Source: an uncultured bacterium
GTDB taxonomy: Bacteria > Patescibacteriota > Minisyncoccia > Phycocordibacterales > GWA1-40-21
NCBI GenBank assembly: GCA_903832855.1
Contig: CAILDB010000003.1
Coordinates: 15,398-79,397, forward strand
Direction: 5' to 3'
DNA length: 64,000 nt
The notes below the pieces were generated by a model. It did not search any database, had not been told where the DNA came from, and worked only from the letters and a program-made list of their open reading frames with translations. Numbering within the stretch: position 1 is the stretch's first letter; each line of letters begins with the position of its first letter. Both the position numbers and the translations under genes were made by a program. Shown one piece after another: positions 391-60,279 of this stretch.

Positions 391-771
391 TTATTTCAAC
401 ACCTCCAGAAACTGCTCCGCGAGCTCATCAATAGAATAAAGTGCTTTTACGAGAAACTTTTTGGCGCCAAGCTTTAGGCCCATCTCCATATCATTTTTTT
501 GGCCAAGATTTGAGACAATGACAACAGGAATATCTTTTGTATTTACATCCTCTTTCAATTTTCTCAAAATATCAAAACCACTCATTCCTGGAAGCATAAG
601 ATCAAGGCCTATGATATCCACTTTCTGTGTCTTCAAAATTTCAAACATTTCTTCACCACTTTTTGCATTAAAAACAAACTCCCCCATTTCAAAAAGTTTT
701 TTACCAAGTAAACTATTTAAAAATAAATCGTCTTCAACTATTAGAATTCTTTTTTTATTGTCTTCTGTCAT
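391..771 (-). CDS. Response regulator, receiver domain only (CheY-like)
   Basis: 126 aa. ILIVEDD...D-x-x-LPGMSGFDIL...K receiver signature, no output domain. Directly downstream of the histidine kinase. Confidence 0.8.
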   Translation of the reverse strand: MTEDNKKRILIVEDDLFLNSLLGKKLFEMGEFVFNAKSGEEMFEILKTQKVDIIGLDLMLPGMSGFDILRKLKEDVNTKDIPVVIVSNLGQKNDMEMGLKLGAKKFLVKALYSIDELAEQFLEVLK

Positions 772-778
772 ATGTCTA

Positions 779-2062
779 TTATACTTTATCTGCTGAAATT
801 GGTAAAGTGATATCCACAGTCGTACCTTTACTCAAAACCGAGGATAATTTGATCTCACCACCATGCATTTCTATTACTTTGTTTGTGGCATAAAGCCCCA
901 CACCAGTCTCATTTGGGTCTAGAAGCATAGCATTTTTACCTCTAAAGAACTTTTGGAAGATGTATTCCATATCTGCGGAGTCTATTCCTATTCCAGTATC
1001 TTTCACAATTATTTTTGCGCTTGAATTTTCTCTTTCAACTGTTACAAACACTTTTCCTTTTGGCGCGTATCTAAAAGCATTATCAAAAACATTTGTAATA
1101 ACTATACTAAGCATTTTTTCATCGCCATTTATCTTAAATGATTCCATCTTTTCGTAAACTAAATCGATTCCTTTTTCCTCAATCAAAAAGTTAAGATCAT
1201 GAATAACATTTTTGATTAAATCTGTAAGAATAAAATCTTTTCTATTTAATTTGATTTCCCCATCACCCAAATCATATTCCGCCGACTTCAAAAGCTCGCC
1301 CACAATATCAATAGAGTGAACAACTTTACCTAATCCTTCCGTCAAAAGCTCTTTATTTGTGCAATTTTCATCACGAATAGCGGTATCCAGTGCCCACCGA
1401 GCACCTGCAAGCGGAGTTCGTAGCTGGTGAGAGATAGCAGTCAAAAATATTTTCTTTACTTTATCGATTTCGTTTATTTGAACAAATTTCCTTTCAAGTC
1501 TTTCCTTTTCATATCTCTGATAAAGCACATCTTTAATTATCTTATAAAGATAGAAAACCATAAGTGAGTAAAGCGCAAGGTGTAAGATGTGTTTGATAAT
1601 ATAGACAGGATTCGTCAGATAATTTGGATCAAGAAAAATGAGAAGAAATAATGCAACTATAGAAGCAATCCCCATATTTCTGGTTACTCGAATATCCAAA
1701 TACAAGCTTGAAATCAGGGGCACAAAAAACATTGCAAACATCATTGAACTATCCAAATTCCCCGTAGCATATATAAAAAGTGCATAAAAAATTATAAAAA
1801 CATAACCGGTGTGAACCCAAAAGGATGGTTTTTTAAATACTGCGGAGACAATAAAAATAATTACTTGATAAACAAGCATTACTGCAATGATAGTAAAATA
1901 CATTTCTCTATGAATAATCCACGGAAAAAGTGAAGGATAAAAAAGTGGTAATAAAATAAATAGAAGAAAAAATAAAATTGGAATACTTTTTATAATAGAA
2001 GCCAGTCCAACAGATTTTGTAGAGTTATTATCCAAACTTTCTTTTTGTGCGTCATTTTCCAT
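779..2062 (-). CDS. Membrane sensor histidine kinase
   Basis: 427 aa. Multiple N-terminal TM helices, an H-box (ISHQLRTPL) and a C-terminal HATPase_c region (GIGIDSADMEYIFQKFFRG...GLGL). Confidence 0.8.
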   Translation of the reverse strand: MENDAQKESLDNNSTKSVGLASIIKSIPILFFLLFILLPLFYPSLFPWIIHREMYFTIIAVMLVYQVIIFIVSAVFKKPSFWVHTGYVFIIFYALFIYATGNLDSSMMFAMFFVPLISSLYLDIRVTRNMGIASIVALFLLIFLDPNYLTNPVYIIKHILHLALYSLMVFYLYKIIKDVLYQRYEKERLERKFVQINEIDKVKKIFLTAISHQLRTPLAGARWALDTAIRDENCTNKELLTEGLGKVVHSIDIVGELLKSAEYDLGDGEIKLNRKDFILTDLIKNVIHDLNFLIEEKGIDLVYEKMESFKINGDEKMLSIVITNVFDNAFRYAPKGKVFVTVERENSSAKIIVKDTGIGIDSADMEYIFQKFFRGKNAMLLDPNETGVGLYATNKVIEMHGGEIKLSSVLSKGTTVDITLPISADKV

Positions 2063-2095
2063 ACCTCACTATTATACACGATTTTCCTTGCCCAT

Positions 2096-4186
2096 TCAAA
2101 CTTTTTTCTTGAAGAAAGTTTGCGTGGGCTTTTTTTTCTTGTCCACAGCTTTGGCTTTCTTTTCTATAATTATTTCAATTTGAGCGATTTCATCTCGAAG
2201 AAGTGCTGCTGTCTCAAAATCAAGAATTTTTACAGCCTCGGTCATCTGTTTCTGTTTTTCTTTAATTAGAGTTTTGAGCTTATTTCCGTAAATACCGATG
2301 TCAATCTGCATCAATTCTGAGACAGCCTTCTCATGTTCAGTATTCATTTGATCGGTAATATCTTTAATTTTCTTTATAATAGTTTTTGGAGTTATGCCGT
2401 GTTTTGTATTGTAAGCGGTCTGAATTGCTCTTCTTCTATTTGTTTCTGAGATCGCTCTCGTAATTGAGCCGGTAATGTTGTCTGCATAAAGGACAACTTT
2501 TCCTTTCACATTTCTCGCTGCCCTACCGATAGTCTGAATCAATGATGTCTCCGAACGCAAAAACCCTTCTTTGTCGGCATCAAGAATTCCAATAAATTCA
2601 ACCTCCGGCAAGTCCAAACCTTCACGAAGTAAGTTCACACCGACAATACAATCAAACTTCCCTCTTCTAAAATCAGAGAGAATTCCAATTCTATCTATCG
2701 TTTTGATATCGCTGTGCAAATATTCTGCTTTCACACCTTTTTCTTTTAGAAATACGCTCAAATCTTCCGCCATCTTTTTTGTAAGAGTTGTCGCAATTAC
2801 ACGACCGCCGCCTTTTACAACTCTTTCCGTTTCTTCAATGAAATCAAAAACCTGTCCTTTGTAACCGGACTCCTTGCTTTCCGCAATTTTCCTAATCTCA
2901 ACCTCCGGATCAATAAGCCCAGTGGGACGAATTACTTGCTCAACAATATTTTCTGAATTCGCTTTTTCATAATCTCCCGGAGTCGCAGTAGTAAAAATTG
3001 CTTGACCAATTTTATTTTCAAATTCGTCAAATTTCAAAGGTCTGTTGTCCATTGCGCTTGGTAATCTAAAACCATATTCCACAAGTGTTTTTTTTCTTGA
3101 TTTATCACCCTCAAACATTCCTCTGATTTGCGGTATCGTAACATGCGATTCATCTATAATAGTGAGGAAATCTGCCGTTCCATCGGCTTTATGCGGAAAA
3201 TATGAGAGAAGCGTGCTTGGCGCTTCTCCAGCAAGCTGACCAGAAAAATATCTGGAATAATTTTCAATTCCATTACAATAGCCAACTTCACGGATAAGAG
3301 CTAAATCATAATTTGTCCTTCTTTTTAATCTTTCCGCTTCAAGATTTTTTCCATCTTTTTTTAATTCCGCCAATCTTTTTTCCAAATCAATTTTAATTTC
3401 TTTTATTGCCCTCGCCTGTTGTTCCTTACCTGTAATAAAATGCTTGGCAGGAAAAACAAAAATGTCTTTTAGATCTTCTTCAATAATTCTATTTGTGACT
3501 GAATCTATTTTTGCAACTTTAGAAACAAAATCTCCATCAAAAGAAATTTTGTAAATAACTTTTTCGTTTACCGGCATTATTTCCACGGCATTTCCGACTG
3601 CACGAAAGTCTCCCGGACTTAAATCTGCGTTTGTCCTTTCAAAATGAATGTTTACCAGCTTTTTTATTATTTCCTGCCTGCTAGATTTTTCTCCTTTTGA
3701 AATTTTAATATTTACACTTAAATATTCTTCCGGATTTCCAAGATTGTAAATACAGGAAACGGATGCGACAATAATCACATCCTTTCTCGTCAAAAGTGCC
3801 TGTGTAGAAGCGTGACGAAGCCTATCAATTTCCTCATTTATCATTGCCTCCTTTTCAATGTAAGTATCAGTCACCGGCATATAGGCCTCTGGCTGATAAT
3901 AATCATAATAGGAAACAAAATAATGCACAGCGTTATTTGGAAAAAATTCTTTGTATTCTTGAGCAAGTTGAGCCGCGAGAGTTTTGTTGTGTGCAATTAC
4001 AAGAGTTGGTTTATCGTACTGAGCAATCACATTTGCCATTGTAAAAGTTTTTCCTGAACCCGTCACACCAAAAAGAGTTTGCTTCATCGCACCATTTTCT
4101 AGCCCAGAAACAAGCGACTTTATCGCCTCCGGCTGATCCCCAGCTGGTTTCCAATCTGATTTTATTTGAAAATTATGTTGTGACAT
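2096..4186 (-). CDS. uvrB: Excinuclease ABC subunit B
   Basis: 696 aa. GVTGSGKTFTMA Walker A and the conserved UvrB helicase and UvrC-interaction C-terminal coiled coil. Arrangement is uvrA-[two-component system]-uvrB. Confidence 0.95.
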   Translation of the reverse strand: MSQHNFQIKSDWKPAGDQPEAIKSLVSGLENGAMKQTLFGVTGSGKTFTMANVIAQYDKPTLVIAHNKTLAAQLAQEYKEFFPNNAVHYFVSYYDYYQPEAYMPVTDTYIEKEAMINEEIDRLRHASTQALLTRKDVIIVASVSCIYNLGNPEEYLSVNIKISKGEKSSRQEIIKKLVNIHFERTNADLSPGDFRAVGNAVEIMPVNEKVIYKISFDGDFVSKVAKIDSVTNRIIEEDLKDIFVFPAKHFITGKEQQARAIKEIKIDLEKRLAELKKDGKNLEAERLKRRTNYDLALIREVGYCNGIENYSRYFSGQLAGEAPSTLLSYFPHKADGTADFLTIIDESHVTIPQIRGMFEGDKSRKKTLVEYGFRLPSAMDNRPLKFDEFENKIGQAIFTTATPGDYEKANSENIVEQVIRPTGLIDPEVEIRKIAESKESGYKGQVFDFIEETERVVKGGGRVIATTLTKKMAEDLSVFLKEKGVKAEYLHSDIKTIDRIGILSDFRRGKFDCIVGVNLLREGLDLPEVEFIGILDADKEGFLRSETSLIQTIGRAARNVKGKVVLYADNITGSITRAISETNRRRAIQTAYNTKHGITPKTIIKKIKDITDQMNTEHEKAVSELMQIDIGIYGNKLKTLIKEKQKQMTEAVKILDFETAALLRDEIAQIEIIIEKKAKAVDKKKKPTQTFFKKKV

Positions 4187-4206
4187 TTTTGAAAATTTCT
4201 GGCTTG

Positions 4207-4246
4207 CCCCGTAGTGAACCGAGCCTTCGAGGTTCTACTACTGGGG
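4207..4246. repeat. Short copy of palindromic repeat family PR1 (CCCCGTAGTGAA...TTCTACTACTGGGG)
   Basis: Imperfect inverted repeat 21 nt upstream of the uvrB start codon. The arm sequence is shared with copies at 7732, 32646, 33287, 38496, 50710, 53678 and 60227. Confidence 0.5.
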
Positions 4247-4324
4247 TTTGACATACAAGATACGATTATGTTAGATTTTACAAGGAAATGCAAGTACACC
4301 ACAACAAGACAAAGGAGAAATGAA

Positions 4325-7654: not shown

Positions 7655-7731
7655 AATTTTAAAATACGACTATTAATAATAGTTACCAGTATATCACAAT
7701 GAAAACTTTTACAAAAGCAAATATGTTGATA

Positions 7732-7799
7732 CCCCGTAGTGAAATTTGCCATTGATTTTTAAAAAGTTGAACTTTTTGATGGCAAATTCTACTACGGGG
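7732..7799. repeat. PR1 palindromic repeat (CCCCGTAGTGAAATTTGCCAT ... ATGGCAAATTCTACTACGGGG)
   Basis: 21-bp arms form a near-perfect inverted repeat around a 26-bp spacer. The right arm is immediately followed by TGATATAAT (7801-7809) and the ATG of the next gene at 7815. Confidence 0.6.
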
Positions 7800-7814
7800 T
7801 GATATAATGTTTAT

Positions 7815-8522
7815 ATGAGTATTAAAAATTGGTTCTTAGGACATATTAAAAGAAAAGCAGAAGAAGAACCTGTTACTATTGCTGAACTCAAAAAAATTGT
7901 TGAAAAAAGGATGTCTATTACAAATGATGAATTCCAAAAAGGATACGAGCTCATAGAAAAATATCCTCGTTCTGTCAGCATTTTGGGTTCTGCAAGATTT
8001 AATGAGGACAACAAATATTATCAGGCGGCAAGGTCATTAGGTTATAGAATAGCCAAGGAGCTCAAATATGCTGTCGTGACAGGCGGAGGGCCTGGAATTA
8101 TGGAAGCAGCAAATAGAGGCGCGTATGAGGCAAGAGGCAAATCACTTGGCTTCACAATTAAACTTCCAAAGGAACAGAAAGTAAATAAATATGTGACAGA
8201 GTTTGTTGAATTTGAATATTTCTTTAGCAGAAAGACGATACTTTTCTTTTCCGCCGAATGCTATGTTTATTTTCCGGGAGGATTCGGGACATTGGATGAA
8301 TTACTTGAAATTGTGACTTTAATACAAACAAAAAAGATTCCCAGAACACCGGTTATTTTAGTCGGTAGAGAATTTTGGCAACCATTTATTGATTTAATGA
8401 AAACAAAACTTTTAGACGAAAATGAAACAATCAGTCCAGATGATATTAATATTTATCAAATAGTTGATTCCGAAGACGAAATATTAAAAATAATTAAAAA
8501 CGCTCCGTTTAGACAGGAATAA
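7815..8522 (+). CDS. LOG-family protein (TIGR00730 Rossmann-fold, cytokinin riboside 5'-monophosphate phosphoribohydrolase-like)
   Basis: 235 aa. GGGPGIMEA and PGGFGTLDEL motifs. Confidence 0.8.
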   Translation: MSIKNWFLGHIKRKAEEEPVTIAELKKIVEKRMSITNDEFQKGYELIEKYPRSVSILGSARFNEDNKYYQAARSLGYRIAKELKYAVVTGGGPGIMEAANRGAYEARGKSLGFTIKLPKEQKVNKYVTEFVEFEYFFSRKTILFFSAECYVYFPGGFGTLDELLEIVTLIQTKKIPRTPVILVGREFWQPFIDLMKTKLLDENETISPDDINIYQIVDSEDEILKIIKNAPFRQE

Positions 8523-8523
8523 C

Positions 8524-8683
8524 AAAGCAAAAAGGTTTTTGTAAAAAATAACCTCGTAGCAAAATGCTTTTGAATTGACTTGGGAGCGCGACGGCGCGAG
8601 CACGAGGAATTTTTTAGCAAAAAAATATCCGTGCAATTCAAAAGCTTTTTGTGGAGAGGTTTTTACAAAAACCTTTTTGCTTT
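8524..8683. repeat. Nested palindromic GC-rich repeat, family A core, filling the convergent intergenic gap
   Basis: The outer 24-bp perfect inverted repeat AAAGCAAAAAGGTTTTTGTAAAAA / TTTTTACAAAAACCTTTTTGCTTT encloses the core TTTTGAATTGACTTGGGAGCGCGACGGCGCGAGCACGAGGAATTTTTTAGCAAAAAAATATCCGTGCAATTCAAAAG. The same core is at 23349-23435 and 25838-25925. Confidence 0.55.
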
Positions 8684-8691
8684 CTTTTTCC

Positions 8692-9009
8692 TTATTTAAT
8701 AGAAGTAATCTCCACTTTAAAATATGGCTGTCTGTGTCCGTTCTTTTTAAAATATCTGCTTTTTTGTTTGTAGTGAATAACTGTAACTGTAGGAAGTTTA
8801 CCAATTTCTATGATTTTCCCCTCTACTTTTGCACCATCAATAAAAGGAGTTCCGATAGTAGTATCTTTGCCGTTATCCACAAGCAAAACCTTATCAAAAA
8901 CGACTTTATCGCCTTCTTTGAAGTCATCCCCGAGCTTTTCTATTTCCAAGAAATCGCCCTTTGACGCTTTGTATTGTTTTCCACCTGTTTTTATAACTGC
9001 AAATTCCAT
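8692..9009 (-). CDS. rplU: 50S ribosomal protein L21
   Basis: MEFAVIKTGGKQYKASKGDFLEIEKL... is a typical L21 N-terminus. The ORF-track start at 9045 adds 12 unlikely residues. Confidence 0.85.
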   Translation of the reverse strand: MEFAVIKTGGKQYKASKGDFLEIEKLGDDFKEGDKVVFDKVLLVDNGKDTTIGTPFIDGAKVEGKIIEIGKLPTVTVIHYKQKSRYFKKNGHRQPYFKVEITSIK

Positions 9010-14996: not shown

Positions 14997-16055
14997 CTAT
15001 TCTTCCATCTCCGGCTTCACCACTTCCAATAATTCCAGTCCAGATTCCTTGCCGGTAATTCTCACAACATCCTTATCTATTTTTTTGAATTCTTTGTTTG
15101 AAGCATTGAAATGATTCACTGTTGTTGCGAGAGAGCTTCCGAGCTTTCCCTGGTATTCTTCATAGCTTCGCAAATGCTTTTGCAAACTTTCCACATTTTT
15201 CCTGATTTCAAGCGCCGATTCTTCTATCTGAAGTGCTTTGAGCCCCTGCAAAACTGTCTGCAAGTATGCAAGGAAAGATGTAGGCGAGACAATGATGACA
15301 TGCTTTTCTTTGAATGCGTACTCTATCAAATCACGAGTATTTATTTTCATTGCACCAACTTGGGAAATGAGAAGATCGTAATAAATCGCTTCGTGCGGAA
15401 TAAACATAAATGCAAAATCCATAGTTCCCTCTTTTGGCTTCACATATTTTGCCGTTTCGTCTATTCTTCTTTTTAAATCATCTCTAAATAATTTCTCCAA
15501 CTTTTCTCTTTCGGCTGGATTTTTTTCTTCAACAAGACGATTGTAATTTTCCAGAGAAAACTTTGAGTCAATGGGAATTATTTTTTCTTTTACAAATACC
15601 ACCGCGTCCACTATCGTGCCATCTGTGAAAGCGTATTGCATTTGATAACTTCCGGTAGGCAAAACATTTTTCAAAAGTGTCTCAAGAAAATATTCGCCAA
15701 GAATTCCCCTTTGTTTTGGATTTTTCAAAACATCTTGAAGTGATTGAAGTTGGTCGGCAAAAGAAACAACCTGCTTGTTAGTCTCATCAAGTCTCGTGAG
15801 CTTTTCTGTAATATCTCGAATTATTTTAAATGACTCACTGGATTGATGTTTGAGTGATTCATTCATTTCTTTTGAGGTATCACCCATTTTCTTATCCACA
15901 GTTCTAGTGAGTTCGTTCATTTGCTCTAAAAGAAGTTTGAGTCCAATCCCTTCGCCGTCAGATGAGCCGGCTTTCCTTTTCAAAAGCATATAAATAACAC
16001 CGAAAAGTAAGATAGCAATAATTGCGAGAAAAATGTAAATCACAACTTGGTTCAT
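14997..16055 (-). CDS. rmuC: DNA recombination protein RmuC-like (ORF extends to 16172; likely start MNQVVIY at 16055)
   Basis: N-terminal TM and coiled coil, with a conserved RmuC-type C-terminal region. Confidence 0.6.
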   Translation of the reverse strand: MNQVVIYIFLAIIAILLFGVIYMLLKRKAGSSDGEGIGLKLLLEQMNELTRTVDKKMGDTSKEMNESLKHQSSESFKIIRDITEKLTRLDETNKQVVSFADQLQSLQDVLKNPKQRGILGEYFLETLLKNVLPTGSYQMQYAFTDGTIVDAVVFVKEKIIPIDSKFSLENYNRLVEEKNPAEREKLEKLFRDDLKRRIDETAKYVKPKEGTMDFAFMFIPHEAIYYDLLISQVGAMKINTRDLIEYAFKEKHVIIVSPTSFLAYLQTVLQGLKALQIEESALEIRKNVESLQKHLRSYEEYQGKLGSSLATTVNHFNASNKEFKKIDKDVVRITGKESGLELLEVVKPEMEE

Positions 16056-16115
16056 AAAAGTATTATAGCACCATGGCAAGACAAAACAAAACGAATATGA
16101 TAATATGTTGTCATT

Positions 16116-17123: not shown

Positions 17124-17195
17124 GGCTCTATCGTCTAACGGTTAGGACATAGCCTTCTCAAGGCTAGAATCGCGGTTCGATTCCGCGTAGAGTCA
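17124..17195 (+). tRNA. tRNA-Glu (anticodon CUC)
   Basis: Manual cloverleaf. Acceptor GGCTCTA/TAGAGTC, D-arm GTCT-AACGGTTA-GGAC, anticodon arm TAGCC-TTCTCAA-GGCTA (CTC), T-arm CGCGG-TTCGATT-CCGCG. No CCA encoded. Confidence 0.8.
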
Positions 17196-17363
17196 CAAAA
17201 ATTTGCGGAGCATAATTTTTGTGATTTTTAAACGCAAAAGTTTTTGCGTTTAAAAAGAATCGAAAGACGGAGGCCGACGGGCCGAGTCGGGGTCGCAAGA
17301 TTTTTCAGCAGAAAAATACTTGTGACCGAAAGCGTACTCGCGTTTCCGCGTAGAGTCACAAAT
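17181..17363. repeat. Direct duplication of the tRNA-Glu 3' end (TCCGCGTAGAGTCACAAA at 17181-17198 and 17345-17362) bracketing a ~150-bp GC-rich structured element (module B)
   Basis: The second copy lies 164 nt downstream of the first. The intervening GACGGAGGCCGACGGGCCGAGTCGGGGTCGCAAGATTTTTCAGCAGAAAAATACTTGTGACCGAAAG is homologous to 51130-51205 and 19290-19345. Confidence 0.5.
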
Positions 17364-19206: not shown

Positions 19207-19225
19207 AACCTAATATTACCACAAA

Positions 19226-19492
19226 AAATCTCGCAAGAAAAATTTGAAAATTTTGCTAGGGGTGGCGATCCTGTTCCTTTTGAAATACATTGCGCAGGCC
19301 GACTGGGCCGAGCATAACAAATTTTCAGCAGAATATTACTTCGACGAGCGAGGAGCAAGGTGGAAAATCTTATTTTACATCTTGTCCGAGCGAAGTCGAA
19401 GCAAGAAGATTCTTATCTTCTTATGTGCGTATTTCAAAAGGAATAGGTCGACAGGACCCCGTGAAATTTTCTAATTTTTCTTGCGAGATTTT
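19226..19492. repeat. Composite GC-rich nested-palindrome repeat (family A ends + module B + 7085-type module)
   Basis: Outer 31-bp inverted repeat AAAAATCTCGCAAGAAAAATTTGAAAATTTT / AAAATTTTCTAATTTTTCTTGCGAGATTTTT (one mismatch). Inner ends GCTAGGGGTGGCGATCCTGTTCCTTTTGAA ... AAAAGGAATAGGTCGACAGGACCCCGTGAAATTTT are shared with the 23333 and 25824 copies. Fills the ftsI-murF gap. Confidence 0.6.
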
Positions 19493-19495
19493 TAC

Positions 19496-23292: not shown

Positions 23293-23303
23293 AGATACGG
23301 ATG

Positions 23304-23481
23304 ACACAAAATTAAGAGACTGAAAATTTTGTTAGGGGTGGCGATCCTGTTCCTTTTGAACTGACTTGGGAGGCTGACTGAGCCGAGCACGAGGAATTTT
23401 TTAGCAAAAAAATATCCGTGCAGTTCAAAAGGAATAGGTCGACAGGACCCCGTGAAATTTTCAGTCTTTTAATTTTGTGTC
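23304..23481. repeat. Composite nested-palindrome repeat, family A
   Basis: Outer inverted repeat ACACAAAATTAAGAGACTGAAAATTTT / AAAATTTTCAGTCTTTTAATTTTGTGT. Inner sequence GTTAGGGGTGGCGATCCTGTTCCTTTTGAACTGACTTGGGAGGCTGACTGAGCCGAGCACGAGGAATTTTTTAGCAAAAAAATATCCGTGCAGTTCAAAAGGAATAGGTCGACAGGACCCCGTGAAATTTT. Confidence 0.6.
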
Positions 23482-24943
23482 AATTTTTAGGAGGTCTAAG
23501 AAGTGGAAAAATCTGACATTCTTTTGCTGGTTTGTTCATCAAGAAACTAAACAATCTTTCAGAAAGCCCGAAGCCACAAGTTGGTGGCATTCCATATTCC
23601 ATTGCTTCCACAAATTCCCCATCCGTCATCTGCGCCTCCTCATCACCCTCTTCTAAAAGTTTTGCCTGTTCCATAAATCTATCCATCTGATCTATCGGAT
23701 CATTAAGCTCACTAAATCCCTTACCCATTTCAGAACCAGCAAGAATCACCTGAAATCTTTCTACTAAATTTGTATCCTTTTCCATTCTCTTTGCAAGTGG
23801 TTCCATCATCACAGGAACATTTATAAGAAATCCCGGACCTGCGATTTGCTTTCTGCAATATTTCCACAAATTATCTACTGCTCTATTCAAATTAAAACCT
23901 TTTTTATTATCATACTCCACTTTCAATTCCCTAAGTTTTTTTTCAATTTCAGGAAGTTTTGCAGAAGTAACATCCACATCGGTCATTTTTTTAATTATTT
24001 CTACATAATCATAAATTTCCCATTCTTTTTCAAAATCAATTTCAAAATCTTTTATTTTAAACTTCATCGTGCCAAATGTTTCCATCGCAACTCTTCTGTA
24101 AAGTTCTTTTATCAATTCCATTCCCTGATTGTAGTCCGCATACGCCCAGTAAAATTCCATCATTGAATAATCCTGCAAATGTTCGGCATCCATTCCTTCG
24201 TTTCGAAAATTTCTACCAATTTCAAAAACTTTTGGAAAACCAGCAATCATAAGACGCTTGAGCCAAAGCTCAGGAGAAATTCTCAAATAAATATCTAGGT
24301 CAAGTGCATTATGATGTGTGATAAAAGGTCTCGCCTCTGCACCTCCCGGAACAGATTCTAAAATAGGCGTCTCAACTTCCATAAAACTTTTTTCTACCAG
24401 AAAACTTCTGATAGACGCCCAGAATTTTTCTCTTTTTATTATAATCTCTTTTACATCCTCATTAAAAAGAATATCTAAATATCTTTTGCGGAGTTTTTCT
24501 TCTTCATCTTGAAGCCCGTGCCATTTTTCAGGAAGTGGTCGCAAACTTTTTGAAAGCATTTTCCAAGAAGTTACCTGCAATGTTTTCTCGCCTCTTTTGG
24601 TAGTAAAAAGTGTTCCTCCAACCTCTATAAAATCGCCAATATCAATGACTTTTTGGAAAAAATCAAATGTTTCAGCTCCTATATCATCTTTCTTGATAAG
24701 CCCTTGAAACTTGGCCGTGCCATCGTAAATATTAAAAAATACCAAAGCTCCCTGCTCGCGAAGTGACATTAGTCTCCCGGTAAGATGAATATCTTTATTT
24801 TCTAAAAGTGAATCGTATTTTTCTATAACCTCGTTCAATGAAAAATCCCTTCTGGATGATGATGGGTAAGGATTTACTCCAGCATCTCTTAAGATTTTTA
24901 ATTTCTCTATTCTATTATTTCTTATTTCTACTAATGAACTCAT
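23480..24943 (-). CDS. lysS: Lysyl-tRNA synthetase (class II)
   Basis: 487 aa. N-terminal OB anticodon-binding fold and class II motifs 1-3. Confidence 0.95.
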   Translation of the reverse strand: MSSLVEIRNNRIEKLKILRDAGVNPYPSSSRRDFSLNEVIEKYDSLLENKDIHLTGRLMSLREQGALVFFNIYDGTAKFQGLIKKDDIGAETFDFFQKVIDIGDFIEVGGTLFTTKRGEKTLQVTSWKMLSKSLRPLPEKWHGLQDEEEKLRKRYLDILFNEDVKEIIIKREKFWASIRSFLVEKSFMEVETPILESVPGGAEARPFITHHNALDLDIYLRISPELWLKRLMIAGFPKVFEIGRNFRNEGMDAEHLQDYSMMEFYWAYADYNQGMELIKELYRRVAMETFGTMKFKIKDFEIDFEKEWEIYDYVEIIKKMTDVDVTSAKLPEIEKKLRELKVEYDNKKGFNLNRAVDNLWKYCRKQIAGPGFLINVPVMMEPLAKRMEKDTNLVERFQVILAGSEMGKGFSELNDPIDQMDRFMEQAKLLEEGDEEAQMTDGEFVEAMEYGMPPTCGFGLSERLFSFLMNKPAKECQIFPLLRPPKN

Positions 24944-25805: not shown

Positions 25806-25958
25806 CCAAAAATTTTGTTAGGGGTGGCGATCCTGTTCCTTTTGAACTGACTTGGGAGCGCGACTGGCGCGAGCACGAGGAATTTTTTAGCAAAAAAATA
25901 TCCGTGCAGTTCAAAAGGAATAGGTCGACAGGACCCCGTGAAATTTTTCGGCTGAAAA
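25806..25958. repeat. Composite nested-palindrome repeat, family A
   Basis: GTTAGGGGTGGCGATCCTGTTCCTTTTGAACTGACTTGGGAGCGCGACTGGCGCGAGCACGAGGAATTTTTTAGCAAAAAAATATCCGTGCAGTTCAAAAGGAATAGGTCGACAGGACCCCGTGAAATTTTT, about 95% identical to the 23333 copy, with short flanking inverted repeats. Confidence 0.6.
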
Positions 25959-31511: not shown

Positions 31512-32630
31512 TTACTTTATCAATCTACCAATATCCTTAAATGTCAAAACAATCATAAGTAAAATTAGAAGACCGAAGCCAATCGTATTTAAAATGTTTG
31601 CAATTATCGGTTTAATATTTTTTCTTGTTATTCCTTCAATCGCTACAAAAAGCACTCGCCCACCATCAAGCGCCGGAAAAGGCACAAGATTTATCATTCC
31701 AAGATTGATTGAGATGAGAGCGATGAATCCGAGAAAATATGAAAGGCCAAAATATTTTGCTTGACCTACCATTTCCGCAATTCCCACTGGCCCAGTCACT
31801 TGAGAAAAATCCGCCTTGCCTACTATCGCATTTTTTATCAAATCATAAATTCCAACGATTACTTTTCCTGAAGTTATGATAGTCGTTTTTCCTCCTTCAT
31901 AAAAAGAACGCAAAATTCCAAATTTAATGATGCCTACAGTATCCATTCCAATACCTATCACTCGCACTCCTCCGGAAATATCCGGAATGATATCAAGCTC
32001 AGTCTGTTTGCCACTTCTTTCATAAATAATTTTTACAGATGAGACAGAATCCTTCACAACTTTTTGGACTTCCGCGAGTGTCGGCACAGTAAAACTTTCC
32101 GTCCCATTTGAAATACTGGAAATTCTGTCACCAATTGTAATTCCTGCTTTTTCCGCAGGAGAATTTTTCATTACAGAAAGAACAATCGTAGAAATATTTG
32201 TTGCGACATTTTTGTATTCAGAGTCCACAGAGGAAATAAGTCCAACAGCAAAAGATGAAGAAATTAAAATCCATGCAAAAATTAAATTAAATAAAATTCC
32301 GGAAAGCAAAATCGCAACTTGTTTCCATTTTGAGACATTTACAAAACTTTTTCCTTTTCCGTCTTTGCGAGGAAGCTCCTGACGAAGCAATCCATCCGCT
32401 TCTTCTGTAACTCCGTCTTCCCCAAAAATCTTCACAAATCCCCCGAAAGGAATCGCCCCGATAGAATATTTCGTCCCCCCTTTCCCCCACGACAAAATCC
32501 TTGGTGGAAACCCCACACAAAATTCATCCACCCTCACCCCACACATTTTTGCCACTATGAAATGCCCCAGCTCGTGCACAAAAACAAGCATAGCGAGAAC
32601 CACGAGAAAAAGTATTATTGTTAGTATCAT
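31512..32630 (-). CDS. rseP: Site-2 protease RseP (zinc metalloprotease with PDZ)
   Basis: 372 aa. HELGHF zinc motif in TM1, PDZ domain, LDGG motif. Confidence 0.9.
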   Translation of the reverse strand: MILTIILFLVVLAMLVFVHELGHFIVAKMCGVRVDEFCVGFPPRILSWGKGGTKYSIGAIPFGGFVKIFGEDGVTEEADGLLRQELPRKDGKGKSFVNVSKWKQVAILLSGILFNLIFAWILISSSFAVGLISSVDSEYKNVATNISTIVLSVMKNSPAEKAGITIGDRISSISNGTESFTVPTLAEVQKVVKDSVSSVKIIYERSGKQTELDIIPDISGGVRVIGIGMDTVGIIKFGILRSFYEGGKTTIITSGKVIVGIYDLIKNAIVGKADFSQVTGPVGIAEMVGQAKYFGLSYFLGFIALISINLGMINLVPFPALDGGRVLFVAIEGITRKNIKPIIANILNTIGFGLLILLMIVLTFKDIGRLIK

Positions 32631-32645
32631 TTAGATATTCTATCA

Positions 32646-32716
32646 CCCCGTAGTGAATTTTGCCATCAGGTTTTCAGAAAAACCCAATGTTTTCAAATGG
32701 CAAAATCTACTACAGG
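32646..32716. repeat. PR1 palindromic repeat (CCCCGTAGTGAATTTTGCCAT ... ATGGCAAAATCTACTACAGGG)
   Basis: 21-bp inverted arms. On the rseP strand the arm is followed by TGATAGAAT and then the rseP ATG about 15 nt on. Confidence 0.6.
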
Positions 32717-32734
32717 GTATCAAAAAAACTGAAA

Positions 32735-33286: not shown

Positions 33287-33417
33287 CCCGATAGTAAAAT
33301 TTCAAATTGTTTTTATATTTATGAAAACTTTTTGAAATTTTTATTATTTTTAATAATATTTCGACACATTTAGCATGACCTATAGTAAAAACAAAATGAT
33401 TTGAAATTTACTACGGG
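33287..33417. repeat. PR1 repeat, long-spaced form (CCCGATAGTAAAATTTCAAATTG ... TGATTTGAAATTTACTACGGG)
   Basis: The left arm starts 1 nt upstream of the frr ATG. Arms are homologous to those of the 38496 copy, with an AT-rich spacer of about 80 bp. Confidence 0.5.
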
Positions 33418-33454
33418 ACAAGTCCTGATAAATTTTCTTCACTTAATATTATCA

Positions 33455-33500
33455 CGAAAAGAGTAAAAGAAAAAGGGCTCGCTGTCATGATGACTAGCGA
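33455..33500 (-). terminator. Rho-independent terminator (minus strand)
   Basis: On the minus strand, GGGCTCGCTagtcatcatgacAGCGAGCCC followed by TTTTTC, just after the 33526 stop. Confidence 0.55.
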
Positions 33501-33525
33501 GCCCGGTACCGGCAGAAATGCCACA

Positions 33526-33936: not shown

Positions 33937-34064
33937 AAAGAACTTCTCCTTATTTTCTATTTAGTTCGTCTGAAGGACCGCCTTCAGATTCTGAATTTAC
34001 TATATCAAGAACATCCTTAAGAGTAAAGCTCGCCAATGGCAAGGTCTGACCTTGCCATTAAATT

Positions 34065-35183: not shown

Positions 35184-35250
35184 AAGAACACTCCTTTCTT
35201 TTCTCCTAAAAAATACTAGCACAATCAAGTCATAGCAACAAGCGAATGAG

Positions 35251-35410: not shown

Positions 35411-35421
35411 CGAATGAGCCT

Positions 35422-38437: not shown

Positions 38438-38495
38438 AATGCAAGTACAGATATTGAAAAAGAAGCTGTTTTGTGGCAGAATGCTAAGAATGAAT

Positions 38496-38631
38496 CCCGT
38501 AGTAGAATTTCAAATTACTGCCTTTCGTTTTTTACTATAGGGTTGCCATTTTATCGAAATTATCAACATATTAATTAGAGTTTCAAATTGTAAATAGGGC
38601 AGTAAAAAACAATTTGAAATTTCACTACAGG
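38496..38631. repeat. PR1 repeat, long-spaced form (CCCGTAGTAGAATTTCAAATT ... AATTTGAAATTTCACTACAGG)
   Basis: The right arm ends at 38631, and the priA ATG is at 38632. Confidence 0.55.
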
Positions 38632-40533
38632 ATGAAACTTATTGAAGTCATACCTATTTCTAGGGGCATACCAAAGGAGTCGTTGAACTATTTTTCGTCT
38701 GTTGCCGTGCCTGTGGGCTCGGTGGTGAAAGTTCCTCTTCGAAAGAAAATTATTCCAGCAATTGTCGTGTCGGAAAGAGATGTGGAAGAAGCAAAATCAG
38801 ATATCAAGAATTCTTCTTTTCCGCTCAGGAAAATTGAGAAAGCAAAATTCGCGAAATTTTTGACTTCGGATTTTGTGGAGGCCGGAAGAGAGACGGCAAA
38901 ATATTTTGCTGGCTCCACGGGCTCCGTTTTGTTTTCTTTGGTTCCAAAAGTTCTGCTTGAAAATGTGGAAAAAATAAAAATTCATAAGATTGAAGAGGCA
39001 GAAAATAAAAAAACTCAACATCATGAAAAATATGTTGTGCAGGCAACCGACGAAGAAAGATACGCAAATTATAAAAGTTTGATAAGAGAAGAGTTTGCAA
39101 AAAACTTGTCTGTTTTCTTTTGCTTGCCGACAATTCAAGATATTAAAAAAGCAACCGAAAAACTGCAGAAAGGAATAGAAAAATACACTTACATTTTGCA
39201 CGGTTCATTGAACGAAAAAGAAATAATAGAAACAGTCAATAAAATTCTCGCTGAAACACACCCTGTCTTGATCATAGGCACAGGAGGCTTTCTATCCATA
39301 CCAAGGTCCGACCTTGGCACTCTCATAATAGACAGAGAAAATTCTAGAGCATACAAAAATCAAGGACGACCATATCTAGATATCAGATATTTTGCGGAAA
39401 AGTATGCCGAACAAGCAAAAATAAAATTGGTATTTGGCGACTTACTTTTAAGGACGGAAACAATCTGGCGATTTAAAAATGGAGAGTTAGTAGAAATTTC
39501 TCCTTTGAAATTCAGATCACTTTCCACTATGACCGAGGAAATTATAGAAATGAAAGAAATTTCAGAAAATTCACTAGAGAAAAAGAAATTCAGAGTGATA
39601 AGTGACAGGTTGGAGGGCTTAATAAAGAAAAATATAGAAAATAACGAGCATCTTTTTATTTTTGTCGGTAAAAGAGGTCTCTCGCCTTCTGTCGTTTGCG
39701 CTGATTGCGGGACGATAGTGGCCTGTAGAACCTGTGGTGCTCATACCGTGCTTCACAAAGCATCGGAGGAAAACTTTTTCCTTTGTCATAAATGCGGAGA
39801 AAGGAGAAGTGCACTAGAAAAATGCGCAAAATGCGATAGCTGGAAACTCACGACTCTTGGAATTGGTTCAGAGCTCATTGAACAAATGCTTTTAGAAAAA
39901 TTCCCCAACCAAAAAATATTTAAACTTGACTCGGATAGTTCGCCAACACACAAAAAGGCCTCACAAATAATAGAAAAGTTTTATGCCTCTCCGCAAGGAA
40001 TTCTCATCGGTACAGAAATGGCACTTTTGTATCTTACAGAGAAAATTGAAAATTCTGCGGTTGTTTCAATGGATTCTTTTTTCTCAATTCCTGATTATAG
40101 AATAAATGAAAGAGTTTTAAATATTTTGCTTAAAATTAGGTCAATTACAGACAGAAATTTTATTATTCAGACAAGGGACTCTTCACAAAAGGTCTTTGAC
40201 TATGCTTCCAAAGGAAATCTCATTGATTTTTATAAAGATGAAATTTATATGAGAGAAAAACTCGGCTATCCACCTTTTTCTGTACTTATAAAAATAATAA
40301 TTGCCGGAACAAAAAATGAGGTTTTACAAAGTGTGGAATATTTACAAAAAGAACTCACACCATTTGAAATAAATGTTTTTCCTGCTTTCATCCCCGGAGC
40401 CAAAGGCAAATATGCCGTCAATGGAATTGTAAAAATCCCAAAAAAGGACTGGCCAAATGAAAAAATTCTCGGTGTCCTCAAAACCCTTCCACCAAACTTC
40501 TCGGTAAATATAGATCCGGAGAGTTTACTTTAA
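38632..40533 (+). CDS. priA: Primosomal protein N' (PriA)-like, with degenerate Walker A / DExH motifs
   Basis: ORF-track frame starts at 38614; the ATG at 38632 is the likely start. C-terminal CxxC zinc-binding cluster CADCGTIVACRTCGAHTVLHKASEENFFLCHKCGERRSALEKCAKC. Motif I is HGSLNEKE instead of GxGKT, and motif II is LIIDRENS instead of DEEH. Confidence 0.75.
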   Translation: MKLIEVIPISRGIPKESLNYFSSVAVPVGSVVKVPLRKKIIPAIVVSERDVEEAKSDIKNSSFPLRKIEKAKFAKFLTSDFVEAGRETAKYFAGSTGSVLFSLVPKVLLENVEKIKIHKIEEAENKKTQHHEKYVVQATDEERYANYKSLIREEFAKNLSVFFCLPTIQDIKKATEKLQKGIEKYTYILHGSLNEKEIIETVNKILAETHPVLIIGTGGFLSIPRSDLGTLIIDRENSRAYKNQGRPYLDIRYFAEKYAEQAKIKLVFGDLLLRTETIWRFKNGELVEISPLKFRSLSTMTEEIIEMKEISENSLEKKKFRVISDRLEGLIKKNIENNEHLFIFVGKRGLSPSVVCADCGTIVACRTCGAHTVLHKASEENFFLCHKCGERRSALEKCAKCDSWKLTTLGIGSELIEQMLLEKFPNQKIFKLDSDSSPTHKKASQIIEKFYASPQGILIGTEMALLYLTEKIENSAVVSMDSFFSIPDYRINERVLNILLKIRSITDRNFIIQTRDSSQKVFDYASKGNLIDFYKDEIYMREKLGYPPFSVLIKIIIAGTKNEVLQSVEYLQKELTPFEINVFPAFIPGAKGKYAVNGIVKIPKKDWPNEKILGVLKTLPPNFSVNIDPESLL

Positions 40534-40870: not shown

Positions 40871-40920
40871 CCCACCAACGGGAAGGAAAATTCATCCTTC
40901 TGTGCGGTGGGTTTTTCTTT
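40871..40920 (+). terminator. Rho-independent terminator
   Basis: CCCACCaacgGGAAGGAaaattcaTCCTTCtgtgcGGTGGG followed by TTTTTCTTTT. Confidence 0.55.
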
Positions 40921-50708: not shown

Positions 50709-50709
50709 T

Positions 50710-50745
50710 CCCGTAGTAAGAAATTCTTATTTCTTTACTACTGGG
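50710..50745. repeat. PR1-related short palindrome (CCCGTAGTAAGAAAT / ATTTCTTTACTACTGGG)
   Basis: Immediately after the miaA stop. Arms share the CCCGTAGTA motif. Confidence 0.45.
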
Positions 50746-50786
50746 ATAAAGAAAAAATAACAGAAGCGTTAGGATGGTATGGCGTT

Positions 50787-53677: not shown

Positions 53678-53813
53678 CCCCGTAGTAGATTTTTGGCTTG
53701 ATTTTTTTTGGGCCGACACGAGTATTCTATCCATATTTATAGCCATTTTTTATATTTTGATACACAATTGCTTAGTTGAAAAAAATCGGCCAAAGCCAAA
53801 AATTCACTACAGA
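53678..53813. repeat. PR1 repeat, long-spaced form (CCCCGTAGTAGATTTTTGGC ... GCCAAAAATTCACTACAGAG)
   Basis: Arms are about 100 bp apart, between the rnpB 5' end and the promoter of the 53906 operon. Confidence 0.5.
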
Positions 53814-53814
53814 G

Positions 53815-59670: not shown

Positions 59671-60198
59671 TTATTTGTTCCTAAATATTATCCCATAATG
59701 CTGTGCCCCAGCACTAATTTCCCTATCATATTCAAAACCATTTTTCTTGAAAAGTTCTTTGGCTTTTTCCGCATCAAAAACAGAACTGCTGTGAGGTCCG
59801 ATGCCACCGAATGAACTTGCCCAATCCACGAGGAGCACCCTGCCACCTTTTTTCAAAATTCTTTTCATTTCCAAACATGGGTTGTCTTTATTTTCAAATT
59901 GGAAAAAAATATTTGCAGCAATCACGGCGTCCAAAGACATTGAACGAAGCTTCGTTCCACCCACATGTTCCAAATCCGCCCAAATCACATCCACATTTCT
60001 TTTGTGTTGAGAGTTTGCAAGATTTTTAATTTTCAAAAGCAAATCCTTCTGCACATCTATTGCATAAACCTTACCGTCGGGACCCACGGCATCTGACGCA
60101 GCCAATGTATAAAAACCCGAACCCGCACCAAAATCCGCCACGAAATTCCCCGGGCCTAAACTAAATTGTTTTACATTATCTCTTGGATCAGAAAACAT
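59671..60198 (-). CDS. Class I SAM-dependent methyltransferase
   Basis: 175 aa. Motif I VADFGAGSGFYT, motif II YAIDV, post-I acidic residue. Confidence 0.8.
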   Translation of the reverse strand: MFSDPRDNVKQFSLGPGNFVADFGAGSGFYTLAASDAVGPDGKVYAIDVQKDLLLKIKNLANSQHKRNVDVIWADLEHVGGTKLRSMSLDAVIAANIFFQFENKDNPCLEMKRILKKGGRVLLVDWASSFGGIGPHSSSVFDAEKAKELFKKNGFEYDREISAGAQHYGIIFRNK

Positions 60199-60226: not shown

Positions 60227-60247
60227 CCCCGTAATAGAATTTGCCAT
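60227..60247. repeat. Single PR1 arm (CCCCGTAATAGAATTTGCCAT) fused to TGGTATAAT on the methyltransferase strand
   Basis: The minus strand reads ATGGCAAATTCTATTACGGGG-TGGTATAAT-(20 nt)-ATG of the 59671..60198 gene. No partner arm was found. Confidence 0.35.
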
Positions 60248-60279
60248 CAAAAGACTTTGTTGATAACTCAAAATCTATC

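What the first reader, a model, noticed from the sequence alone, without database searches (positions are those of the whole stretch)
7732..7817. PR1 palindromic repeats sit immediately upstream of start codons and are fused to extended -10 boxes (candidate mobile promoter or operator)
Eight PR1 arms or arm pairs were found: 4207, 7732, 32646, 33287, 38496, 50710, 53678 and 60227. In the transcribed orientation the outer arm ...ATGGCAAATTCTACTACGGGG is followed directly by TGATATAAT at the LOG gene, with the ATG 6 nt later. The same applies to TGATAGAAT at rseP and TGGTATAAT at the 59671..60198 methyltransferase. At frr and priA the arm ends 1 nt and 0 nt before the ATG. At uvrB it ends 21 nt before. 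Inner arm sequences differ between copies but remain complementary within each copy, and arm spacing ranges from about 12 to about 100 bp. This is the signature of a hairpin-forming element, not a fixed dimer operator. Either a MITE-like element carries an outward-facing extended -10 promoter that yields leaderless or near-leaderless mRNAs, or this is a structured cis-regulatory motif recognised by a global factor.
Basis: seen in the sequence. Interest (0 to 1): 0.6.

Follow-up and report, generated by a model that had tools for sequence, protein, structure and literature searches.

The report
Promoter-targeting hairpin mini-transposons in Patescibacteria
The palindromes are copies of a small hairpin-shaped mobile DNA element, found across the tiny-genome Patescibacteria, that inserts exactly at existing promoter boxes and so only looks as if it carries the promoter.

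Summary
The sequence facts hold. Eight PR1 copies lie in the window, all in non-coding DNA. Three abut TGnTAnAAT boxes and five lie within about 20 nt of a start codon.

The "mobile promoter" reading is wrong. Close relatives have empty sites at LOG and rseP: TGATATAAT-N6-ATG and TGATAGAAT-N6-ATG are already there. The window differs by exactly the element plus one extra TGATA, a 5-bp target-site duplication.

In the 62-72-nt class, 77% carry a 3-5-nt flanking direct repeat. Of 42 four-nt duplications, 26 are TTGA, 22 of those read TTGAC, and 21 of 23 abutting TTGAC boxes have a -10 at 16-18 nt. Others sit on TATAAT or TGnTA.

Stem positions 13-21 co-vary and a G·T/A·C mismatch is conserved. 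Orientation relative to the promoter is random.

Best reading: a MITE-like element that targets sigma-70 promoter hexamers and regenerates them by its duplication. No transposase, Rfam family or paper was found.

A 40-nt variant is often flanked by duplicated gene 5' ends; this is unexplained.

The parts
7732..7799 (.). PR1 copy el2, 68 nt, long class. Arms CCCCGTAGTGAAATTTGCCAT / ATGGCAAATTCTACTACGGGG.
   Evidence: DNA fold -21.1 kcal/mol, z = -8.7. Absent from relative L122.
7727..7731 (+). Left copy of the 5-bp target-site duplication TGATA of el2.
   Evidence: L122 has a single TGATA in ...aatatgtTGATAtaatgtttatATG.
7800..7804 (+). Right copy of the TGATA duplication. It supplies the TG and the first TA of the box TGATATAAT.
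7803..7808 (+). Pre-existing -10 hexamer TATAAT of the LOG gene, 6 nt before the ATG at 7815 (leaderless-type spacing).
   Evidence: Conserved as TGnTATAAT-N6-ATG in L122-L127, which have no element.
7708..7713 (+). TTTACA, the former -35 of the LOG promoter (16-nt spacer in the empty site), now displaced 73 bp by the insertion.
   Evidence: Read. Assigned by consensus only.
4207..4246 (.). PR1 copy el1, 40-nt short class (CCCCGTAGTGAACCGAG-loop-CGAGGTTCTACTAC-T-GGGG). It lies directly in front of TTGACA (4248-4253), N17, TTAGAT, the consensus promoter of the hypothetical gene at 4325, and 20 nt from the uvrB ATG on the other side.
   Evidence: Empty site in L128...gaaaattgcgg|TTTGACAtgtaag.
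32646..32717 (.). PR1 copy el3, 72 nt, between frr and rseP. Flanked by TATCA (32641-32645 and 32718-32722), which is TGATA on the rseP strand. It abuts TGATAGAAT (32637-32645, minus strand), 6 nt before the rseP ATG.
   Evidence: Empty site in L132: tttcTGATAgaatgtttaaATG.
33287..33418 (.). PR1 copy el4, 132 nt. It abuts the frr ATG and lies inside what is the frr 5' UTR in relatives. No clear duplication.
38495..38632 (.). PR1 copy el5, 138 nt, flanked by TGAA|...|TGAA. Its last base is the A of the priA ATG.
50709..50746 (.). PR1 copy el6, 38-nt short hairpin directly after the stop codon of ORF 49809-50708.
53678..53814 (.). PR1 copy el7, 137 nt, flanked by TTGA (53674-53677 and 53815-53818). 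The right copy begins the consensus promoter TTGACT-N17-TATTAT (53815-53843).
60227..60256 (.). PR1 copy el8, truncated, about 27-30 nt of one arm only. It abuts TGGTATAAT (60218-60226, minus strand), 19 nt upstream of the methyltransferase ATG at 60198.
   Evidence: The arm matches the reverse complement of el2 for about 27 nt.

Best explanation
PR1 is a family of short (about 30-140 nt), non-coding, hairpin-forming mobile elements of the MITE kind, spread through Patescibacteria (mainly Paceibacterota).

Anatomy. Each copy has conserved 12-nt inverted ends, one reading CCCCGTAGTGAA and the other CCCCGTAGTAGA. In a folded strand this gives a constant G·T plus A·C mismatch. A variable but self-complementary stem follows, and the longer forms have one or two small apical hairpins.

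Shown here. Copies are insertions flanked by 4-5-bp target-site duplications. Occupancy differs between close relatives. At LOG and rseP the extended -10 box and its leaderless spacing to the ATG pre-date the insertion.

Inferred. The insertion machinery, an unidentified transposase acting in trans, prefers the upstream edge of sigma-70 promoter hexamers: TTGA of TTGAC(A/T), TATA of TATAAT, and TGnTA of the extended -10. Because the duplicated bases rebuild the hexamer on the gene side, the promoter part next to the gene survives. At -35 sites the whole promoter stays intact. At -10 sites the old -35 is pushed about 70 bp away, and the promoter is left as an extended -10 promoter, possibly helped by a weak -35-like ATGGCA in the arm 18 nt upstream.

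The apparent fusion to -10 boxes and start codons therefore comes from target choice combined with this genome's frequent TAnAAT-N6-ATG gene starts. It is not cargo.
For: Empty sites.
- L122 versus the window at LOG differ by exactly 68 nt plus one TGATA.
- L132 versus the window at rseP differ by exactly 72 nt plus one TGATA.
- L128 versus the window at 4207: the element lies directly before TTTGACA.
- The close relative L129 has an element at the same rseP position but with duplication TGTTA, matching its own box TGTTACAAT, and with a different central sequence. This points to an independent hit of the same promoter.

Duplications.
- 66 of 86 long-class copies have a direct repeat of at least 3 nt, against 12% with shuffled partners. 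The mode is 4 nt, and only 3 of 86 flanks are inverted.

Target.
- TTGA/TCAA makes up 26 of 42 four-nt duplications, against 1.2% of non-ORF 4-mers (p = 7e-40).
- C follows TTGA in 22 of 26, against 20% background (p = 2e-12).
- A -10 at 16-18 nt follows 21 of 23 abutting TTGAC boxes, against 28% of background TTGAC (p = 4e-10).
- About 18 further copies abut TATAAT-like boxes, often N6-7 before an ATG.

Structure.
- Stem positions 13-21 are 68-96% Watson-Crick, against 32-79% with shuffled partners. Seven of these nine positions show all four pair types.
- 80 of 88 copies have one GTGA arm and one GTAG arm.

Other.
- Element orientation relative to the -35 is 12 versus 13.
- TAnAAT-N6-ATG also occurs at genes without PR1, at 771 and 16055.
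Against: - No transposase or full-length element with these ends was found in the window or in 886 kb of fetched loci.
- About 20% of long-class copies, and window copies el4 and el6, show no duplication.
- The genome scan required near-perfect ends, so it favours young copies. The statistics come from that ascertained set.
- An attempted replication in 429 kb of metagenome loci fetched for the short class found no long-class copies to test.
- Promoters are called from consensus only; no transcription start data exist.
- Preference of the enzyme and selection on survivors cannot be separated by sequence alone.
- The only empty site at a -35 is for the 40-nt copy, whose duplication is ambiguous. 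No empty site was obtained for a long-class TTGA copy.
- The short class has a constant flank (TGCYTG) on one side only and long flanking repeats, which a plain cut-and-paste model does not predict.
Confidence: 0.72

Rival explanations
1. Mobile promoter. The element itself carries an outward-facing extended -10 (and perhaps a -35) and brings it to genes, creating leaderless mRNAs.
For: Three window copies are followed directly by TGnTAnAAT. The inner arm ATGGCA lies 18 nt upstream of the -10 in el2 and el3 (read).
Against: Empty sites already hold the complete TGATATAAT-N6-ATG and TGATAGAAT-N6-ATG. More distant relatives without the element keep the same box. The flanking bases vary between copies (TTGA, TATA, CAAG, TGATA, TGTTA) and always match the other flank, so they are target and not element. 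Most copies abut no -10 at all.
Confidence: 0.03
2. Promoter adjacency comes from selection alone. The element inserts at any TNNA-like site, and in these compact genomes only insertions that leave a working promoter survive.
For: Intergenic regions are very short (about 15% of the window), so most tolerated sites are near promoters. The duplication set includes non-promoter words such as TAAA and CAAG.
Against: Selection would tolerate any position upstream of -35. Yet 26 of 42 duplications are exactly TTGA, with C next in 22 of 26. The same rseP box appears to have been hit independently in two relatives, at the same nucleotide. TAAA/TTTA words are about twice as common as TTGA/TCAA in non-ORF DNA but are rare among duplications.
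Confidence: 0.15
3. REPIN/REP-type element moved as single-stranded DNA by a single-copy RAYT (HUH tyrosine transposase). It would then be a long-lived, vertically inherited passenger and not a classical MITE.
For: GTAG sits near each end. Conserved inverted ends flank a non-conserved but hairpin-keeping spacer, as described for REPINs (PMC3337134). The conserved mismatch suggests recognition of a folded strand. The distribution is very broad within one superphylum. One Patescibacteria locus encodes a RAYT-like protein.
Against: Clear 4-5-bp target duplications are present. These are not described for REPINs (no mention in the primary REPIN papers) and are not expected for HUH transposition (established knowledge of IS200/IS605). 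The 12-nt end is not itself a palindrome. The RAYT-like gene in L113 is flanked by a different palindrome, TCAAGGCGTCGCCTTGA, not by PR1, and scores 32.7 bits against a cut-off of 80.
Confidence: 0.12
4. Functional cis element (operator, nucleoid-protein site, insulator or terminator hairpin) recognised by a conserved Patescibacteria protein. Mobility would be secondary or ancient.
For: The 12-nt ends and the mismatch are conserved across very distant lineages. The 40-nt form is conserved in sequence, loop flanks included. Copies recur near translation genes: 7 of 120 loci hold rpsL-rpsG-fusA.
Against: Occupancy differs between close relatives at otherwise conserved promoters. Spacing is not fixed and orientation is random. 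Positions range from upstream of -35 to 5' UTR to after a stop codon. No Rfam family matches.
Confidence: 0.1

Closest known systems
Bacterial MITEs, especially Neisseria Correia elements (comparison from general knowledge, not tested here)
   Same: Short, non-coding and dispersed in intergenic DNA. They have terminal inverted repeats, target-site duplication and a hairpin potential, lie next to promoters, and vary in presence between relatives.
   Different: Correia elements duplicate TA, are confined to Neisseria, and contribute promoter boxes from their own ends. PR1 duplicates 4-5 bp that belong to a pre-existing -35 or -10 hexamer. It carries no demonstrable promoter, spans a whole superphylum, and keeps its stem by compensatory change.
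REPINs with RAYT transposases (PMC3337134, PMC3116915)
   Same: Conserved short inverted ends containing GTAG. The spacer is not conserved in sequence but always forms a hairpin. Copy number is high in extragenic DNA, and persistence within a lineage appears long.
   Different: PR1 has target-site duplications, and its ends are not themselves palindromes. No linked RAYT was found; the one RAYT-like gene seen has its own, different repeats.
Integron attC sites (general knowledge)
   Same: Conserved outer inverted motifs, a variable but self-complementary centre of variable length, and conserved unpaired or mismatched bases that could mark one strand.
   Different: PR1 copies are scattered singly at promoters of housekeeping genes, not at the ends of cassettes in an array. 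They have flanking duplications, and no integrase is linked.
Site-selective transposons that use 'safe' targets (Tn7 at attTn7, IS elements inserting into REP sequences, yeast Ty3 at Pol III start sites; general knowledge)
   Same: Insertion at a defined, recurrent genomic feature where damage to the host is small.
   Different: The feature here would be the sigma-70 promoter hexamer itself, rebuilt by the duplication. I did not find this described.

Membership tests
MITE (non-autonomous DNA transposon) | Short, no coding capacity, many dispersed copies | tested here: met
   Copies are 30-140 nt. There are 8 in 64 kb and more than 120 loci in about 95 assemblies.
MITE (non-autonomous DNA transposon) | Terminal inverted repeats | tested here: met
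   Ends CCCCGTAGT(GAA/AGA) are inverted at both termini in all complete copies.
MITE (non-autonomous DNA transposon) | Target-site duplication of fixed length | tested here: met
   66 of 86 long-class copies have a direct repeat of at least 3 nt, mode 4 nt, against 12% in the control. Two empty sites show exactly 5 bp. Window copies el4 and el6 and the short class are unclear.
MITE (non-autonomous DNA transposon) | Presence/absence at orthologous sites | tested here: met
   LOG, rseP and the 4207 site are empty in relatives L122, L132 and L128.
MITE (non-autonomous DNA transposon) | Autonomous partner with the same ends encoding a transposase | tested here: inconclusive
   No arm pair at 0.3-4 kb enclosing an ORF with matching duplication was found in the window plus 886 kb. 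Whole genomes could not be scanned.
REPIN / REP-RAYT system | Two inverted conserved units with a hairpin-keeping spacer | tested here: met
.
REPIN / REP-RAYT system | Each unit (REP) is itself an imperfect palindrome | tested here: not met
   The 12-21-nt arm has no internal dyad. Only the whole 40-nt short form is an imperfect palindrome.
REPIN / REP-RAYT system | Cognate RAYT gene flanked by the repeats | tested here: inconclusive
   A tblastn probe (an IS200 TnpA sequence recalled from memory) found one IS200 TnpA and one RAYT-like ORF in L113. That ORF scores 32.7 bits against a cut-off of 80 and is flanked by a different palindrome. None lies next to PR1.
REPIN / REP-RAYT system | Insertion without staggered-cut duplication (HUH chemistry) | tested here: not met
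   4-5-bp duplications are present.
Element-borne (mobile) promoter | Promoter boxes absent from the empty site and brought by the element | tested here: not met
   The boxes are present in the empty sites.
Transcription-factor operator | Dyad with fixed spacing at a fixed place relative to promoters of a regulon | tested here: not met
   Arm spacing ranges from about 5 to 110 nt and positions vary. Occupancy is polymorphic.
Any Rfam RNA family | Match at the gathering score | tested here: not met
   Only tRNAs reach the gathering score. At the E-value threshold there are only generic hairpin hits far below the cut-offs.

The most novel reading that the evidence does not exclude
PR1 may be a superphylum-wide, long-persisting hairpin element whose integration machinery reads sigma-70 promoter hexamers, or promoter DNA held by RNA polymerase holoenzyme. 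It would insert at the upstream edge of -35, -10 or extended -10 boxes and rebuild them by its duplication. That would be a promoter-directed 'safe landing' strategy not described for bacterial transposons. Its 40-nt variant may additionally insert inside the first 20-70 nt of essential genes together with a long duplication (or captured copy) of the gene's 5' end, which keeps the gene intact.
Probability: 0.25. Interest if true: 0.85.

Novelty: new variant of a known kind. Interest (0 to 1): 0.6.

Why it matters
Patescibacteria have tiny, gene-dense genomes that are thought to carry little mobile DNA, and their transcription signals are almost unstudied.

A repeat family that marks -35 and -10 boxes at nucleotide precision gives a free map of real promoters and of leaderless gene starts in uncultured lineages.

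If targeting is enzymatic, it would be a new example of how a transposon survives in a compact genome: it lands where its own duplication repairs the damage.

Filled and empty alleles at the same promoter offer natural experiments on promoter architecture, namely loss of the -35 with an extended -10 kept.

The conserved ends can also serve as a simple sequence marker for this group in metagenomes.

Tried and rejected
- Rfam, at gathering score over the whole window and at E-value threshold on two copies: only tRNAs and generic hairpin noise.
- Literature, by organism and topic terms and by the literal 12-mers: nothing relevant, only primer coincidences.
- Autonomous partner: I looked for arm pairs 0.07-4 kb apart with similar arms or equal flanks. 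This gave only longer non-coding copies (83-305 nt) and chance pairs. The apparent 3.9-kb 'composite' in L002 is two separate insertions around ribosomal protein genes.
- RAYT link: an IS200 TnpA and a RAYT-like ORF exist in L113 but are flanked by a different palindrome.
- Phage vector: one hit in 2.9 million viral contigs.
- uvrB regulation idea for the short class: the short class is not next to uvrB in other genomes.
- Independent replication of the duplication and promoter statistics in loci fetched for the short class only: no long-class copies were present there.
- UUCG-type RNA tetraloops in the apical hairpins: on reading the loops are 3-nt (GAA/TTC, AAA/TTT), so they are no evidence for an RNA role.
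- Element-borne -35: the arm motif ATGGCA/ATGCCA lies 18 nt from the -10 only when the duplication is TGnTA, and 15 nt when it is TATA. It is therefore not a general feature.

Full report
**Observation**

The region 7732-7799 is a 68-nt near-perfect palindrome: CCCCGTAGTGAAATTTGCCAT...ATGGCAAATTCTACTACGGGG. It is followed by TGATATAAT, then 6 nt, then the ATG of a LOG-family gene. The 12-mer with up to 2 mismatches occurs 11 times against 1.96 expected, and no shuffle reaches 11.

All eight listed copies exist, and all lie in the roughly 15% of the window that is non-coding. The junctions at rseP (TGATAGAAT-N6-ATG), at the methyltransferase (TGGTATAAT, 19 nt to the ATG), and at frr, priA and uvrB are as described. 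Three distances need small corrections: frr 0 nt, priA overlaps by 1 nt, uvrB 20 nt.

Only three copies abut an extended -10. Two (4207 and 53678) abut -35 boxes, and one (50709) follows a stop codon. Every copy folds much better than shuffled sequence as single-stranded DNA.

**Whose genome**

The LOG protein occurs on ENA/Logan metagenome contigs. Its nearest named homologues, at 71-73% identity, are from Minisyncoccia, Taylorbacteria and Paceibacterota MAGs. The gene content (DUF8128, a sigma factor with a faint HARE-HTH hit) is consistent with this. The window therefore comes from a Paceibacterota (Parcubacteria) organism.

**The family is not species-specific**

I scanned one genome per GTDB species for CCCCGTAGTRRA-N15-45-TYYACTACDGGG.

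- Nearly all are Patescibacteria: Paceibacterota, Zambryski-, Taylor-, Yonath-, Nealson-, Wolfe-, Yanofsky-, Kaiser-, Niyogi-, Nomura-, Azam- and Wildermuthbacteria, Minisyncoccia, MAGs labelled Saccharibacteria, and one Peregrinibacteria.
- The outliers are a GC-rich 54-nt palindrome in two Frigoribacterium species and single hits in a 'Bdellovibrionales' and a Prevotella MAG.
- Viral contigs gave one hit.

Sizes fall into three classes:

- a short class of 30-44 nt;
- a long class of 62-72 nt;
- rarer copies of 83-305 nt.

**Mobility**

In the long class, 66 of 86 copies are flanked by a direct repeat of at least 3 nt (mode 4 nt, some 5). With shuffled partners the figure is 12%. Only 3 of 86 flanks are inverted. 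Longer copies also carry 4-nt repeats such as TTCA, CATA, TATG and CTTG.

Direct proof comes from relatives.

- LOG site. L122 (LOG 86% identical, same FKBP/LOG synteny) reads ...caaatatgtTGATAtaatgtttatATG. The window has the same sequence with 68 nt plus a second TGATA inserted.
- rseP site. L132 reads tttcTGATAgaatgtttaaATG, where the window has TGATA-element-TGATA.
- 4207 site. L128 reads gaaaattgcgg|TTTGACAtgtaag, where the window has the 40-nt copy directly before TTTGACA.
- rseP site in L129. L122, L128 and L129 come from the same sample. L129 carries an element at the same rseP nucleotide, but both flanks read TGTTA, matching its own box TGTTACAAT. The central 30 nt differ far more than the flanking DNA does. 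This is most simply an independent insertion into the same promoter.

**The promoter is the target, not cargo**

All relatives examined keep TGnTAnAAT-N6-ATG at LOG, and a -10 six nt before the ATG at rseP, whether or not an element is present. The same TAnAAT-N6-ATG layout occurs at window genes without PR1, at 771 and 16055.

In the empty LOG site a TTTACA lies 16 nt upstream of TATAAT. The insertion moves it 73 bp away and leaves an extended -10 promoter.

Across the family:

- 26 of 42 four-nt duplications are TTGA/TCAA, against a background of 1.2% (p = 7e-40).
- The next base is C in 22 of 26, against a background of 20% (p = 2e-12).
- 21 of 23 abutting TTGAC boxes have a -10 (A2, T6, at least 4/6 matches) at 16-18 nt, against 28% of other TTGAC words in non-ORF DNA (p = 4e-10).
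- About 18 further copies abut TATAAT or TATACT boxes, often 6-7 nt before an ATG.
- TGATA, TGGTA and TGTTA duplications correspond to extended -10 boxes.
- CAAG/CTTG duplications often sit on TTGC-type -35 variants.

Loci carrying copies are enriched for translation operons. Seven of 120 hold rpsL-rpsG-fusA, and others hold tuf, rpsJ or lepA.

**Structure**

Oriented by their ends, 80 of 88 long copies have one arm GTAGTGAA and one arm GTAGTAGA. A folded strand therefore always carries a G·T plus an A·C at stem positions 10-11.

Positions 13-21 are 68-96% Watson-Crick, against 32-79% with shuffled partners. Seven of these nine positions show all four pair types, so the changes are compensatory. 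Position 4 is often mismatched. The centre holds one or two small GC hairpins with 3-nt loops.

Element orientation relative to the adjacent -35 is random, 12 versus 13. For -35-type insertions the element lies upstream of the transcript. Both facts point to a role at the DNA level rather than as an RNA.

**Mechanism**

Shown: insertion with a 4-5-bp duplication, turnover between relatives, pre-existing promoters, and a selected or homogenised hairpin.

Inferred: an enzyme acting in trans makes a 4-5-nt staggered cut at the upstream edge of sigma-70 hexamers, and the duplication restores the hexamer next to the gene.

Selection alone is a weaker explanation. It would allow any site upstream of -35, whereas the insertions are nucleotide-precise and one box seems to have been hit twice.

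It is open whether recognition is of the DNA words or of promoter DNA bound by polymerase. TTGAC, TATAAT and TGnTA share little sequence but are all sigma-70 contact points, which makes the second option worth testing.

No transposase was found. A RAYT-like gene in L113 has its own, different repeats.

**Comparison with known families**

PR1 meets every sequence criterion of a MITE except a known autonomous partner.

It resembles REPINs in having conserved inverted ends with GTAG and a spacer that is not conserved but always forms a hairpin (PMC3337134). It differs in having target duplications, in having non-palindromic ends, and in lacking a linked RAYT.

It resembles attC sites in architecture only.

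Nothing matching was found in Rfam or in the paper library.

**An unexplained extra: the short class**

The short class includes window copy 4207. Its sequence is CCCCGTAGTGAAnCGAG-loop-GAGnTTCTACTAC-T-GGGG, and it is strongly conserved, with a constant TGCYTG on one side.

In at least 7 of 20 genome copies and 9-12 of 53 metagenome copies, the DNA upstream of the hairpin is a second copy (14-78 nt) of the 5' end of the gene that starts 1-40 nt downstream. That upstream copy ends exactly at the hairpin. The genes are lepA, fusA-like, uvrA, gatB (three tandem copies), mraZ, typA and tRNA-Thr. None of 86 long-class copies shows this.

Differences between the two gene copies fall mostly at third codon positions, so the upstream fragment is not simply decaying.

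Candidate explanations are a very long target duplication, one-sided homologous capture of incoming DNA that ends at the hairpin, or one-ended transposition. None was tested. The window copy itself shows a plain insertion before a -35.

**Limits**

- The statistics rest on copies with near-perfect ends.
- Promoters are inferred from consensus.
- No long-class TTGA-type empty site was obtained.
- The replication attempt found no long-class copies to test.

Noticed in passing
Loci L012, L051, L059, L095, L101, L106 (genomes) and L147, L154, L161, L178, L187 (metagenomes). The window's own short-class copy is at 4207-4246.: The 40-nt PR1 variant is often preceded by a duplicated 5' end (14-78 nt) of the gene that starts just after it. 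That copy ends exactly at the hairpin. In gatB (L154) the unit is repeated twice. Differences between the copies fall mostly at third codon positions. The mechanism is unknown.
   Followed up: partly
Window 8515-8692, 19224-19493, 23302-23482, 25832-25924, 35250-35411, 40913-41154: At least two or three other inverted-repeat families are present. One has the core CCTGTTCCTTTTGAA...TTCAAAAGGAATAGG, seen at three places. Another has GTGTTGCCATATTTC...GAAATATGGCAATAC, seen at two. The genome seems rich in MITE-like palindromes beyond PR1.
   Followed up: no
Window 2063-4206 compared with L128 2737-2851: uvrB sits between the histidine kinase gene and the hypothetical gene in the window. It is absent from that intergenic region in a close relative. 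The junctions fall almost exactly at the uvrB stop region and ATG, so this is a gene-sized insertion or deletion.
   Followed up: partly
Window 33419-34064: About 640 nt lie between holB and frr, holding a small ORF and a terminator-like hairpin. This segment is absent in relatives, where the holB stop is 31 nt from the frr ATG and a TGATATAAT box overlaps the end of holB.
   Followed up: partly
Window 769-783, 16053-16067, 7803-7817, 32628-32642: TAnAAT-N6-ATG (leaderless-type spacing) occurs at the starts of the response-regulator, RmuC, LOG and rseP genes. The window holds 10 such sites against 5 expected. Leaderless starts appear to be a trait of this genome.
   Followed up: partly
Window 17183-17199 and 17346-17362: The 3' end of the tRNA at 17124-17195 (CCGCGTAGAGTCACAAA) is repeated about 160 nt downstream. 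This could be a remnant of an integrase attachment site.
   Followed up: no
L026, L039, L056, L083 (Frigoribacterium spp.): GC-rich 54-nt perfect palindromes share the same outer 12 nt, CCCCGTAGTGGA...TCCACTACGGGG, and recur in two actinobacterial species. They may be related to PR1 or may be convergent.
   Followed up: no
L113 84-1363: A Patescibacteria contig carries an IS200/IS605 TnpA next to a 225-aa RAYT-like ORF. That ORF is flanked on both sides by the palindrome TCAAGGCGTCGCCTTGA, which looks like a separate REP-like system.
   Followed up: partly
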